Origin: a virus
Taxonomy: Duplodnaviria; Heunggongvirae; Uroviricota; Caudoviricetes
IMG/VR virus record: IMGVR_UViG_2869947659_000007
Coordinates: 1 to 26,870 of that record
Strand: one strand, 5' to 3'
Length of the DNA: 26,870 bases
Of this stretch, positions 14,901 through 17,900 are shown piece after piece (position 1 is the stretch's first letter; each line of letters starts with the position of its first letter). A program made the position numbers.

Positions 14901-17900
14901 CTTGAGCGAGATATATTAAAAAAAGCAACAGCGTATTTTGCACAGGAGTCGCTGAAAAATACGCGTTAATCGAACAATGGCGACAACAATTTCCCATTGA
15001 AGCGATGTGTCAGGTATTTGGTGTATCCAGGAGCGGTTATTACAACTGGGTACAGCATGAACCCTCAGACAGAAAACAAAGTGATGAGCGGCTAAAACTG
15101 GAGATTAAGGTGGCACATATCCGCACTCGCGAAACATATGGAACCCGGCGGCTCCAGACGGAGCTGGCAGAGAATGGCATCATCGTTGGTCGTGACCGAC
15201 TGGCACGTCTTCGTAAGGAGCTAAGGCTACGCTGTAAGCAGAAACGCAAGTTCAGAGCGACTACGAACCCGAACCACAATCTGCCAGTTGCGCCAAATCT
15301 GCTGAACCAGACGTTCGCTCCTACAGCACCAAATCAGGTCTGGGTGGCGGACCTGACGTATGTTGCCACACAGGAGGGATGGTTGTACCTCGCTGGCATC
15401 AAAGATGTTTATACGTGCGAAATTGTCGGCTACGCCATGGGAGAGCGCATGACAAAAGAGCTGACAGGTAAAGCCCTGTTTATGGCGCTCAGGAGCCAGC
15501 GCCCACCTGCCGGGCTAATCCACCACTCTGATCGAGGTTCACAGTACTGCGCATACGATTACCGGGTCATACAGGAGCAGTCTGGTCTGAAAACATCAAT
15601 GTCGCGTAAAGGTCACTGTTACGACAACGCTCCGATGGAAAGCTTCTGGGGAACGCTGAAAAATGAGAGCCTGAGCCACTATCGTTTTAATAACCGGGAT
15701 GAAGCCATCTCAGTAATACGGGAATACATTGAGATTTTTTACAATCGTCAGCGTCGTCACTCTCGTCTGGGGAATATCTCCCCGGCAGCCTTCAGGGAAA
15801 AATATCATCAGATGGCTGCTTAAAAAAAGAACAAATGGTAGTGTCCGCTATTGCCAGTACACCTCACTGAGCCGGAGATTCCGGATCAACGGCAATGCTG
15901 ACCACCGTCTCTTCCTGTGGTGGATTCTGTTGCTGGTGGGCGTGAGGCAGCAGCGCAAGATTTTTTGTGCGCTGCTTCAGTATGCTGGTGGCGGTCTGCT
16001 CTCCCGGCACGATGTCGCTTTCACGGTACATTGAGCGGATTTTTTCCGCACGCAACCCCAGCGAACGACGTAATACTGCTTCCGGTAGCGCGTCCGCCAC
16101 CTGATTGCGGACCGCCCACCAGGATAATTCAGCCAGAGATAATTCACGCTCCTGCGTACCGCTTATTGCGTGACCGATGACGTCAATCATCCATGCTGAC
16201 AGGTTTTGATGAGCAAGTTGCTCGAGTGATTCGGATGTCTGGTCACGCAACTGGTTGTCGCAGTGCCAGCACAACACCATTGCGCCGGTACCATAACGGT
16301 GAATGACGGTTTCGCTGTGATGATAATCGCCGTGTGGCCACTGGCAGGATTTAATATGGCGCAACAGCCAGTCAGACAATGCACCAGCACCACCAGCAGC
16401 ACGAATCACCCGTGCGTTACTGAAAAACGGCAGCAATGTTTTGTCTTCCACTAGCGGCTGGCGAACGGCAGGAACGACCCCGGACGGCAGATTACGCATG
16501 CTTTTCGGTTCCGGCTCCACCAGTACCCGGGTATTGTGGAATACCGGCATGGATTCACGGCCTGGCTTAAGGACCACCAGCCCGAGTTCCGGAACCAGAA
16601 CAGGTCGAAGTAATACCCGCACATTACCTCCAGATCCGTTGCTGGAATGTGCAGGACGGACGCGGTGGCCGTTCGGAATAAGGGAGCCTGACGAAGATTA
16701 TCCAGTGACGATAATCGAGACTGAGGGCTTTCTTAATCTCGTATCCGTGTCTGCGGTAGCGCTGAATCAGCCATTCAGCCTGTTCTTCGGTGCAGGGGTC
16801 GTGCTGATACCAGTCAGATTTGAATGCATGAGAACGCCGCCCGTGCCTGCTGGCAGGGGCGGCAGAGTTATCCGAATTGTAAAATTTGGTATCGTGCGCC
16901 ATCTGTTTTCTCTGCTGGCGCAGCAGGTGCCAGTTGTTCAGGCTGACGGATGGATTGTAAACCAGAACGACCAGAAAAAACAAAACCCGCCGAAGCGGGT
17001 TAAGTGCGGGTGCGTTGAGGATGCCTGACACATCAGCGGTGGCGAGGGATTTCTCCCCCGCCGGGTCTCTTACTCCTCAGGTTCGTAAGCTGTGAAGACA
17101 GCGACCTCCGTCTGGCCGGTTCGGATTCGTACCTCGCAGAGGTCTTTCCTCGTTACCAGTGCCGTCACTATGACGGTTAAACAGATGACGATAAGGGCGA
17201 TTAACATCGCCTTTTGCTGCTTCATAGCCTGCTTCTCCTTGCCTTTCGGCACGTAAGAGGCTAACCTACATGTGTTCAGCATGGATTGAGCCTCAGATTA
17301 ATGTTAAGCGTCTTGCAGGACGCGTAATGTTAACTGGGGCTTTTCTCTATCTGCCTTTTGGTGTTCATGCCTGAGACAGATAGCCTCAAGCACCCGCAGT
17401 CATTCTACTTAACTAAGATTTCCCTGCAAACCGTTTTTGTCCGGCACAGTAAATATCCAACTAAACCAATAGCGTTCGCTGTATTTACCGCCAGTATTCA
17501 ATGCACATGACCGCCATGAACACCCCTAAAAAAAGGGCATTTATATGTCCAAACATTAATATCAAAACATCAATTTTTTCCATATACCTTGCTGTGAAGA
17601 TGATGGGCATACATGATGCGAACAACCAGAACGCAACAAACAAAAACTGCAATGCGTTTTTCATTATTCCCCCTACAATCAATGTGCAATAACATTTAAA
17701 CACACCTCAATTTGGCCGGACATATAAATATCTAAACCAGAAAAAATCACTTACATAGCGTTACAAACTCTTTAGTCTAAATACTCATCGTAAAACATTC
17801 CCCATACTTATCAGTCCGTTCCGCGCCAGGTAGCTTATTGCCTTATCTGGCAACCTATAATCAGGTTTCCGCTTTTTCAGTTGGCTGGTCGTTTAACCGA

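What the first reader, a model, noticed from the sequence alone, without database searches (positions are those of the whole stretch)
17070..17330. hok-family type I toxin locus in the prophage; antisense Sok-like RNA expected but not located
A 51-aa Hok/Gef-type toxin with a strong SD is present. Such loci normally include an overlapping mok frame and a short antisense RNA opposite the 5' leader. I did not map promoter or fold elements; note the track ORF extends the toxin frame in-frame upstream, which is probably an artefact.
Basis: partly seen in the sequence, partly recalled or inferred. Interest (0 to 1): 0.4.

Follow-up and report, generated by a model that had tools for sequence, protein, structure and literature searches.

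The report
Complete hok/mok/sok toxin–antitoxin cassette
This is an ordinary, fully intact copy of the well-known hok/mok/sok RNA-controlled toxin–antitoxin module (hokW/hokD type) in a decayed lambdoid prophage, and the "missing" antisense Sok RNA lies at 17274–17344 on the + strand.

Summary
17070–17225 (−) encodes a 51-aa Hok/Gef toxin (Pfam 1.2e-23) identical to E. coli K-12 HokD/RelF.

The locus is larger than reported, about 16975–17430, and carries every element of a canonical hok/sok type I toxin–antitoxin system:
- hok promoter and tac 5′ end
- ucb anti-SD and mok SD/AUG
- Sok-target hairpin with a YUNR loop, and dcb
- hok SD, a protective 3′ hairpin, fbi and a terminator

The antisense Sok gene is now located. 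Its promoter is TTGCCT-17-TAACCT (17239–17267, +) and the RNA spans 17274–17344 (+), 71 nt. From −35 to terminator it differs by one loop base from the experimentally validated sokW of Stx2 phage Sp5/933W.

The in-frame 70-aa upstream extension is not an artefact. It is mok, annotated as mokW in 933W and mokC in K-12.

Caution: the Rfam "sok" hit (118.9 bits) lies on the hok-sense strand. It models the mRNA leader, not the antisense RNA.

Folding and covariation across 22 loci from several genera support the tac/fbi lock and the refolding switch.

Verdict: already known and correctly guessed in kind. Interest is low.

The parts
17402..17430 (-). hok/mok mRNA promoter: -35 TTTGCA (17430-17425), 17-nt spacer, -10 TAGAAT (17407-17402)
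   Evidence: Only sigma-70-like site found in 16900-17500. The -10 block TTAAGTAGAAT is conserved in the window, 933W, Rac and Evi while the sequence further upstream diverges. It ends 7 nt before position 1 of the Rfam leader model.
16975..17395 (-). Predicted full-length hok/mok mRNA (~421 nt; mRNA nt n = 17396-n). 5' end inferred, 3' end from the terminator.
   Evidence: Rfam model position 1 = 17395. Terminator hairpin and U-tail. MFE -173 kcal/mol, z = -7.5 against shuffles.
17384..17395 (-). tac (translational activator) element GGGUGCUUGAGG, mRNA nt 1-12. It pairs with fbi in the full-length RNA, with ucb in the truncated RNA, and locally (nt 3-13 with 19-29) in the nascent RNA.
   Evidence: MFE partners of nt 1-12 are nt 388-376. 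Nascent 30-45-nt transcripts fold into the local hairpin, -16.9 kcal/mol. tac/ucb is 99.4% paired over 22 loci.
17347..17384 (-). 5' hairpin (mRNA nt 13-49) enclosed by the tac/ucb stem
   Evidence: 92% of cells paired, with 3 pairs changed on both sides. G.U pairs occur almost only on the mRNA strand, 31 vs 5.
17336..17342 (-). ucb / anti-SD (AAGCCCC, mRNA nt 54-60) that sequesters the mok SD in the closed form
   Evidence: In the full-length MFE the SD nt 102, 104 and 105 pair with nt 60, 58 and 57. Columns are invariant over 22 loci. Element defined for R1 in PMC9841398.
17257..17294 (-). Sok-target hairpin (mRNA nt 102-139): mok SD GAGG (17291-17294) paired with dcb AGCCUC (17257-17262). 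The upper stem contains the mok AUG. The 7-nt loop CUGAACA (17273-17279) starts with a YUNR motif (CUGA) and is complementary to the Sok 5' end.
   Evidence: Rfam consensus structure. It is the MFE of the 145-nt nascent RNA and of the forced-open truncated RNA. The SD/dcb stem is 100% paired in 22 loci, and the upper stem has 7 pairs changed on both sides.
17070..17282 (-). mok reading frame (70 codons, AUG 17282-17280, in frame with hok, sharing its stop)
   Evidence: Equivalent to annotated mokW, 66/70 identical, and to curated mokC. The AUG is conserved in 21/22 loci and open to the hok AUG in every locus that has it.
17235..17240 (-). hok Shine-Dalgarno AAGGAG (mRNA nt 156-161)
   Evidence: Read directly from the sequence. 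Columns are invariant or nearly so.
17070..17225 (-). hok toxin gene (51 aa, = HokD/RelF)
   Evidence: Pfam HOK_GEF 1.2e-23. 100% identical to K-12 HokD. RefSeq annotates it as hokD in the 99.9% identical strain.
17041..17062 (-). 3' UTR hairpin GGCGGGGGA/UCCCUCGCC (mRNA nt 334-355): predicted protective 3' stem-loop of the processed (truncated) mRNA
   Evidence: [quoted passage not shown] Assignment is by analogy.
17008..17020 (-). fbi (fold-back inhibitory) element CCUCAACGCACCC, mRNA nt 376-388
   Evidence: Duplex with tac of -21.5 kcal/mol. The same element lies 45-56 nt after the stop in 18/20 loci, with compensatory changes at three positions. It is the last conserved block before homology with 933W ends.
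16975..17001 (-). Intrinsic terminator of the hok mRNA (hairpin 17001-16984 plus U-tail)
   Evidence: Shared with K-12 hokD, Rac and Evi but not with 933W.
17239..17267 (+). Sok promoter: -35 TTGCCT (17239-17244), 17-nt spacer, -10 TAACCT (17262-17267)
   Evidence: Identical to 933W/Sp5. The published sokW 'promoter-less' mutant primer YO-421 alters this same hexamer (TAACCT to GAGCCG), and that mutant lost protection (PMC8621323). -10 positions 2 and 6 and the TTGCC of the -35 are invariant over 22 loci. Too weak for the generic scan: 7/12 matches by my own count, below the 9/12 threshold.
17274..17344 (+). Sok antisense RNA (71 nt): free 5' tail GUUCAGCAU, long hairpin (17288-17342), U-tail
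   Evidence: Maps onto the annotated sokW misc_RNA and has the same offset from the mok AUG as curated K-12 sokC. 70/71 identical to sokW. Fold -31.2 kcal/mol, z = -5.5. Helix covariation. In the basal helix, G.U pairs occur only on the Sok strand, 27 vs 0.

Best explanation
A complete hok/mok/sok type I toxin-antitoxin cassette of the hokW/hokD subfamily, carried in the nin-like region of an IS-truncated lambdoid prophage.

Mechanism. Steps marked S are shown here by sequence or computation. Steps marked I are inferred from R1 hok/sok and Sp5 hokW-sokW.

1. The - strand promoter makes a ~421-nt mRNA (S: promoter, terminator).
2. While nascent, the 5' tac box folds into a local metastable hairpin (S: fold).
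3. In the full-length RNA, tac pairs with fbi near the 3' end and the ucb box sequesters the mok SD. The mRNA is then neither translated nor bound by Sok (S: MFE and covariation; I: functional consequence).
4. Slow 3' trimming back to the protective hairpin removes fbi (I).
5. tac can then pair with ucb, and the mok SD pairs with dcb. This forms the target hairpin and exposes the mok start region. S: the energy penalty for the open form falls from +15.6 to about +1.7 kcal/mol.
6. Ribosomes translating mok, here in the same frame as hok, run through the hok start region and allow Hok synthesis (I). Hok, a 51-aa inner-membrane peptide identical to HokD/RelF, depolarises the membrane and kills the cell (I).
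7. The constitutive + strand promoter makes the short-lived 71-nt Sok. Its free 5' tail contacts the CUGAACA (YUNR) loop, the two RNAs form a duplex across the mok SD and AUG, and RNase III destroys it (S: complementarity, structure, promoter; I: kinetics, RNase III and Hfq dependence).

When Sok supply stops, through loss of the DNA or prophage induction, the stable mRNA pool matures and Hok is made.
For: Hok domain and identity to HokD. Leader covariance model at 118.9 bits. 94% DNA identity to annotated mokW/hokW/sokW of 933W. The Sok region from -35 to terminator differs by 1 loop base from sokW. For sokW, toxicity, antitoxin activity from its own promoter, loss of protection on -10 mutation, RNase III/Hfq dependence and northern detection were shown (PMC8621323). 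De novo MFE recovers tac/fbi. tac/fbi is conserved with compensatory changes in 18/20 loci from Escherichia, Kluyvera, Photorhabdus, Pantoea, Erwinia and Citrobacter. Pair counts: 87.8% and 85.8% of cells paired against 33-53% when partners are slid, with 9-10 pairs changed on both sides. Strand-specific G.U distribution. Energetics of the switch. mok AUG conserved and open to hok in 21/22 loci. Element definitions from PMC9841398.
Against: Nothing was measured for this exact sequence: no transcript ends, no toxicity assay. In the 3'-truncated RNA the MFE prediction still slightly favours the closed leader, by 1.5-1.8 kcal/mol, so the switch is permitted by thermodynamic prediction but not proven. 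The tac/ucb and SD/dcb stems are invariant, so covariation neither supports nor contradicts them. MAFFT alignment of the upper target stem is imperfect, with 57% of cells paired. The Sok promoter is a weak consensus match. The prophage here is truncated by an IS, so the lysis-assisting role shown for Sp5 may not apply.
Confidence: 0.93

Rival explanations
1. Inactive relic: the locus looks intact but is silent or non-toxic in its host, like most chromosomal hok loci of E. coli K-12, which are inactivated by IS insertions or rearrangements.
For: It lies in a degraded, IS-ridden prophage. K-12 hokD itself is a 5'-truncated remnant lacking tac, ucb, mok start and sok. Some relatives are visibly broken: L051 has a frameshifted Hok, and L034 has no ATG within 8 nt of the mok position.
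Against: Every element is present and uninterrupted. The toxin is identical to HokD. The mok-hok product is 94% identical to the validated MokW-HokW (66/70, with all four differences in the Hok C-terminus). The Sok gene and promoter are 120/121 identical to functional sokW. No IS lies inside 16975-17430.
Confidence: 0.08
2. Literal reading of the Rfam hit: Sok is a ~176-nt RNA on the - strand at 17220-17395, co-directional with hok.
For: cmscan reports RF01794 'sok antitoxin' on the - strand.
Against: The hit ends at the hok SD and AUG, and is on the hok-sense strand in all 19 other loci tested. So the model describes the hok mRNA leader. Curated sokC and annotated sokW are 59-71 nt on the opposite strand. 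The probe that detects sokW is hok-sense (YO-592). The promoter, free 5' tail, hairpin and U-tail are all on the + strand. G.U pairs in the basal helix exist only on the + strand.
Confidence: 0.01
3. The in-frame 70-aa ORF is an ORF-caller artefact and the true mok lies in another frame.
For: In R1, mok is out of frame with hok. This is inferred from PMC9841398, where T315A is a mok stop but Hok Y48N. Five close relatives have mok in frame +1 and three in frame +2.
Against: No other ATG lies within 8 nt of the conserved mok position in the window. The AUG at 17282 lies 9 nt after the conserved GAGG SD, inside the Sok target, exactly where mokW and mokC start. Frame 0 occurs in 13 of 22 loci, and the frame is open to the hok AUG in all 21 loci that have the AUG.
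Confidence: 0.03

Closest known systems
hokW-mokW-sokW of Stx2 phages 933W / Sakai prophage 5 (AF125520; Takada et al. 2021, PMC8621323)
   Same: Same cassette: ~94% DNA identity over 16998-17414. Identical leader architecture and in-frame 70-aa mok. The Sok promoter and RNA are 120/121 identical. Also in a lambdoid prophage.
   Different: The Hok C-terminus differs (TAYEPEE vs VDYESEK; 66/70 over Mok). The window has an intrinsic terminator after fbi that 933W lacks. Position in the phage genome differs: in 933W it is near the end of the late region, here it lies between replication genes and DUF968/rusA/Q. The prophage here is truncated, so the lysis-assisting role is untested.
E. coli K-12 hokD (relF), Qin prophage
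   Same: Identical 51-aa toxin. Near-identical DNA from the hok SD through the 3' hairpin, fbi and terminator.
   Different: K-12 hokD has lost everything upstream of the hok SD (tac, ucb, mok start, Sok gene and promoter), which is replaced by relBE. The window holds the complete form.
E. coli K-12 hokC (gef)/mokC/sokC
   Same: In-frame mok (69 aa), same tac box, same Sok 5' tail and recognition loop (GUUCAGCAU / CUGAAC), same SD/dcb.
   Different: SokC is 59 nt. The window's Sok hairpin carries an extra 18 nt, also seen as an insertion relative to the Rfam consensus. The Sok -35 is TTGACC rather than TTGCCT. In the three-way alignment, hokC shows no tac-complementary block at the fbi position and diverges from the window after the 3' hairpin. 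From knowledge, not tested here: the K-12 locus is considered disrupted by the adjacent IS186.
hok/sok (parB) of plasmid R1, the family archetype
   Same: Same set of elements (tac, fbi, ucb, dcb, mok, sokT, metastable hairpin, 3' processing logic) as described in PMC9841398. mRNA length to fbi is 388 nt here. The R1 lengths I compare against (398-nt mRNA, 64-nt Sok) are from knowledge, not from a tool result.
   Different: Toxin only ~44% identical (HokW vs Hok, PMC8621323). mok is out of frame in R1 and in frame here. Plasmid versus prophage location. I did not align the R1 DNA directly.

Membership tests
hok/sok type I toxin-antitoxin family | ~50-aa hydrophobic toxin with the Hok/Gef domain | tested here: met
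   PF01848 E=1.2e-23, full-length match 1-42/42. Identical to HokD.
hok/sok type I toxin-antitoxin family | Upstream overlapping mok reading frame with its own SD, whose translation runs into the hok start region | tested here: met
   GAGG SD at 17291-17294. AUG at 17282, open to and beyond the hok AUG. Annotated equivalents mokW and mokC. Coupling itself was not tested.
hok/sok type I toxin-antitoxin family | Short cis-encoded antisense RNA (Sok) with its own promoter, free 5' tail, terminator hairpin and complementarity to the mok translation-initiation region | tested here: met
   17274-17344 (+). Promoter TTGCCT-17-TAACCT. Fold -31.2 kcal/mol, z = -5.5. Covers mok SD and AUG. 70/71 identical to validated sokW.
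hok/sok type I toxin-antitoxin family | Long-range 5'-3' pairing (tac/fbi) locking the full-length mRNA | tested here: met
   Recovered by unconstrained MFE. Conserved in 18/20 loci with compensatory U-A to C-G and G-C to A-U changes.
hok/sok type I toxin-antitoxin family | ucb anti-SD sequestering the mok SD (closed form), and the alternative tac/ucb plus SD/dcb pairing (open form) | tested here: met
   Both pairings are possible and 99-100% conserved. The open-form penalty drops from 15.6 to 1.5-1.8 kcal/mol once fbi is removed. These stems are invariant, so no covariation evidence exists for them.
hok/sok type I toxin-antitoxin family | Metastable 5' hairpin in the nascent transcript | tested here: met
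   30-45-nt transcripts fold with nt 3-13 paired to 19-29 at -16.9 kcal/mol. G.U pairs occur only on the mRNA strand, 39 vs 0.
hok/sok type I toxin-antitoxin family | Target hairpin loop with a U-turn (YUNR) motif complementary to the Sok 5' end | tested here: met
   Loop CUGAACA starts with CUGA. Sok 5' GUUCAG is its complement. That YUNR is a family feature is from knowledge (Franch et al. 1999), not retrieved here.
hok/sok type I toxin-antitoxin family | 3' processing of a stable mRNA, unstable Sok, RNase III cleavage of the duplex, membrane killing | not testable with these tools
   Shown for R1 and in part for hokW-sokW (PMC9841398, PMC8621323). Needs northern blots, rifampicin chase and toxicity assays on this sequence.
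Rfam RF01794 'sok' | Score at or above the gathering threshold (59 bits) | tested here: met
   118.9 bits, full-length 1-157. The matched strand is hok-sense, so the hit identifies the hok leader (which contains the Sok complement) and not the Sok transcript.

The most novel reading that the evidence does not exclude
The most novel reading not excluded is about role, not kind. In this IS-truncated prophage, which lacks the Q, lysis and structural genes of its closest relative, the intact cassette would no longer serve phage release as in Sp5. It would instead persist as a selfish stabiliser of the remnant, or as an abortive-infection defence. Because its Sok 5' tail and target loop are identical to those of chromosomal hokC/sokC, it might also cross-regulate with that locus.
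Probability: 0.15. Interest if true: 0.3.

Novelty: already known. Interest (0 to 1): 0.1.

Why it matters
Little new biology. It is one more copy of a cassette found in 79 phage records, of which 74 hold most of the 471-bp query.

The practical value is for annotation:
- RefSeq annotates only the hokD CDS at this locus in the 99.9% identical strain. Mok, Sok and the mRNA elements go unannotated.
- The Rfam 'sok' model reports the wrong strand and extent for the antitoxin, so automated pipelines can mis-place Sok.
- Calling this gene 'hokD' hides the fact that, unlike K-12 hokD, it is a complete and probably lethal-if-derepressed module. That matters for anyone deleting or cloning this region.

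Tried and rejected
- The generic sigma-70 scan did not find the Sok promoter. It matches 7/12 by my count, below the 9/12 threshold. I located it by homology to sokW and sokC and by the published -10 mutagenesis.
- The unconstrained MFE of the 3'-truncated mRNA did not give the open conformation. Constrained folds showed the two forms are nearly isoenergetic.
- A literature search for 'CssrC', the alias of the Rfam family, returned only unrelated papers. The origin of the model's orientation remains undocumented here.
- A search of the whole window against complete E. coli genomes found no colinear genome, 40% coverage at best. The exact source strain is not identified. A Shigella flexneri locus is 99.7% identical over 1.55 kb.
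- The distant search of plasmids did not retrieve an alignable R1 parB locus at useful length. Comparison with R1 therefore rests on the literature.
- I did not use the large protein-database searches or structure prediction, because identity to HokD made them unnecessary.
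Full report
**Observation**

The ORF at 17070-17225 on the - strand is present. It encodes MKQQKAMLIALIVICLTVIVTALVTRKDLCEVRIRTGQTEVAVFTAYEPEE.
- It matches Pfam HOK_GEF over the whole profile (E=1.2e-23) and PHROG 251 'MokW-like host killing' (E=2.8e-33).
- It is 51/51 identical to E. coli K-12 HokD/RelF.
- An AAGGAG Shine-Dalgarno lies 9 nt upstream of the AUG.
- The same frame continues upstream to an ATG at 17282, giving 70 aa.

**Identity and context**

The 471-bp locus matches 79 phage records.
- In Stx2 phage 933W (AF125520), at ~94% identity, the homologous stretch is annotated mokW, hokW and sokW. mokW and hokW share a stop codon, so they are in frame. sokW is a 71-nt misc_RNA on the opposite strand.
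- Window 16000-18600 is 99.9% identical to E. coli FDAARGOS_944. There, RefSeq annotates only a hokD CDS inside a lambdoid prophage, between replication/nin-type genes and DUF968-rusA-Q.
- The window is colinear with that prophage only over 15866-20192 and from 22999 on.
- At ~15866 the DUF968 gene is cut next to an IS3-family transposase. The prophage here is therefore a truncated remnant.
- Flanking ORFs belong to phage families of unknown function.

**Locating Sok**

Three independent anchors give the same start.
- The 933W sokW annotation maps to window 17274-17344 (+).
- Curated K-12 sokC starts 8 nt inside mokC. The same offset from the mok ATG at 17282 gives 17274.
- A promoter, TTGCCT (17239-17244), 17-nt spacer, TAACCT (17262-17267), ends 7 nt before 17274.

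The 121 nt from -35 to the U-tail are identical to 933W except for one base in the hairpin loop.

In Takada et al. 2021 (PMC8621323), the following were shown:
- HokW was toxic, and sokW expressed from its own promoter neutralised it.
- A 'promoter-less' mutant lost protection. Its mutagenic primer changes this same hexamer, TAACCT to GAGCCG.
- The effect depended partly on RNase III and Hfq.
- Northern blots detected sokW RNA. The paper describes it as having 71 nt of complementarity to the hokW 5' UTR.

The candidate RNA folds as a free 5' tail, a long hairpin and a U-tail (-31.2 kcal/mol, z = -5.5).

**The Rfam result needs care**

RF01794 'sok' scores 118.9 bits (E=7.7e-27), but on the - strand, from 17395 to 17220. 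The match ends at the hok SD and AUG. In 19 further loci from other species the model again hits the hok-sense strand and ends at the hok AUG. The model therefore describes the hok mRNA leader, which contains the complement of Sok. It does not give the strand or extent of the antitoxin.

**mRNA anatomy (mRNA nt n = 17396 - n)**

| Element | mRNA nt | Window coordinates |
|---|---|---|
| Promoter TTTGCA-17-TAGAAT | – | 17430-17402 |
| tac GGGUGCUUGAGG | 1-12 | 17395-17384 |
| 5' hairpin | 13-49 | 17384-17347 |
| ucb AAGCCCC | 54-60 | 17342-17336 |
| mok SD GAGG | 102-105 | 17294-17291 |
| mok AUG | 114-116 | 17282-17280 |
| Target loop CUGAACA (YUNR = CUGA) | 117-123 | 17279-17273 |
| dcb AGCCUC | 134-139 | 17262-17257 |
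| hok SD | 156-161 | 17240-17235 |
| hok AUG | 171 | 17225 |
| Stop | 324-326 | 17072-17070 |
| 3' hairpin | 334-355 | 17062-17041 |
| fbi CCUCAACGCACCC | 376-388 | 17020-17008 |
| Terminator hairpin | 395-412 | 17001-16984 |
| U-tail end | ~421 | ~16975 |

These are the elements defined for R1 hok/sok (PMC9841398).

**Structure tests**

Folding:
- Unconstrained folding of the 421-nt RNA pairs nt 1-12 with nt 388-376 and sequesters the mok SD with ucb (-173 kcal/mol, z = -7.5).
- Nascent 30-45-nt transcripts form the local metastable tac hairpin.
- The 145-nt nascent RNA adopts the open form: tac/ucb stem plus SD/dcb target hairpin.
- Forcing the open form costs +15.6 kcal/mol in the full-length RNA, but only +1.5 to +1.8 kcal/mol once fbi is removed. 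This is the logic of the published 3'-processing switch.

Conservation across loci from Escherichia, Kluyvera, Photorhabdus, Pantoea, Erwinia, Citrobacter and others:
- A tac-complementary box lies 45-56 nt after the hok stop in 18 of 20 loci.
- It shows compensatory changes: U4-A to C4-G, G12-C to A12-U, and G11-C to A11-U.

Pair counts on a 22-sequence leader alignment:
- 87.8% (closed) and 85.8% (open) of cells are paired, against 33-53% when partners are slid.
- 9-10 pairs change on both sides, and 0 of 500 shuffles reach the observed covariation score.
- The tac/ucb and SD/dcb stems are invariant. That is uninformative for covariation, but they are 99-100% paired.

Strand test:
- G.U pairs in the 5' hairpin and the metastable hairpin occur almost only on the mRNA strand (31 vs 5, and 39 vs 0).
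- In the helix at the base of the Sok hairpin they occur only on the antisense strand (0 vs 27).
- This is the pattern expected if the + strand hairpin is itself under selection.

**mok**

An AUG at the mok position, about 9 nt after the GAGG SD, is present in 21 of 22 loci. It is open through to the hok AUG in all of them. It lies in frame 0 in 13 loci, +1 in 5 and +2 in 3. What is conserved is translation into the hok start region, not the frame or the peptide. This agrees with the R1 finding that mok translation, rather than the Mok product, matters (PMC9841398). The in-frame extension in the window is therefore mok, not an artefact.

**Relation to K-12 hokD**

K-12 hokD aligns with the window only from the hok SD to the terminator. 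Upstream it is replaced by relBE. The window carries the complete form of a module that is a 5'-truncated remnant in K-12.

**Verdict**

This is a canonical, apparently intact hok/mok/sok cassette of the hokW/hokD subfamily. It is already known in kind and nearly in sequence.
- Function in this particular host is inferred, not measured.

Noticed in passing
window 17220-17395 (-); also L015-L057: Rfam RF01794 'sok' matches the hok-sense strand and ends at the hok AUG in the window and in 19/19 other loci. The model represents the hok mRNA leader, so pipelines that take it literally will annotate the antitoxin on the wrong strand and about 2.5 times too long.
   Followed up: yes
window 14667-15866: An IS3-family transposase (rve/HTH_21 domains, 15005-15823 +) abuts a truncated DUF968 gene. 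Colinearity with the FDAARGOS_944 prophage stops at 15866, so the rusA, Q, lysis and structural genes found there are missing here.
   Followed up: partly
window 3832-5036 (+): Another IS3-family element, with two overlapping ORFs and an ALIL frameshift pseudoknot (Rfam RF01497, 101 bits, 4113-4220).
   Followed up: no
window 1-700 and 22231-22998: Two copies of an IS1-like element (167-aa plus 91-aa ORF pairs). The same ~200 bp also flanks other hok loci (L008, L013). Colinearity with the reference prophage resumes right after the second copy. The IS density suggests a Shigella-like genome, and a Shigella flexneri locus (L011) is 99.7% identical over 1.55 kb.
   Followed up: partly
window 4918-12336: Chromosomal backbone between mobile elements: a 2007-aa yeeJ-like ORF (-), tRNA-Asn (11180-11255, -), mtfA (Peptidase_M90, 11356-12192, -) and tRNA-Ser(CGA) (12247-12336, +). 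Phage-like genes, for example Mu Gp48-like at 13837-14427, begin soon after the tRNA-Ser, which may be an integration site.
   Followed up: no
window 17400-17880: AT-rich spacer (GC 0.35-0.38 against ~0.55 nearby) just upstream of the hok promoter. It contains an unannotated, strongly hydrophobic 72-aa ORF (17485-17703, -) with no Pfam or PHROG match.
   Followed up: partly
window 16998-17414: Homology with Stx phages covers only this interval, from just upstream of the hok -10 to just past fbi. The cassette seems to move as a discrete unit of about 415 bp whose ends coincide with the transcript ends. The intrinsic terminator after fbi is present in the window, K-12 hokD, Rac and Evi but absent in 933W.
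   Followed up: partly
alignment A3 (window nt 17273-17279 and equivalents): The Sok-recognition loop differs among paralogous and orthologous loci (CUGAACA, CUUUGCA, CUUAGCA, CAUAGCA and others). It is identical in the window, 933W and K-12 hokC, as is the Sok 5' tail, so cross-talk with SokC is conceivable.
   Followed up: no
window 17296-17325 (Sok hairpin): The Sok hairpin carries an extra ~18 nt relative to SokC and the Rfam consensus. The insertion is shared by 9 of the 22 aligned loci (E. coli, Kluyvera and related), marking a long-hairpin Sok subgroup.
   Followed up: partly
L054 250-397 (Erwinia sp. CGal63): Three CRISPR-DR4 repeats lie immediately upstream of a hok leader (492-640).
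   Followed up: no
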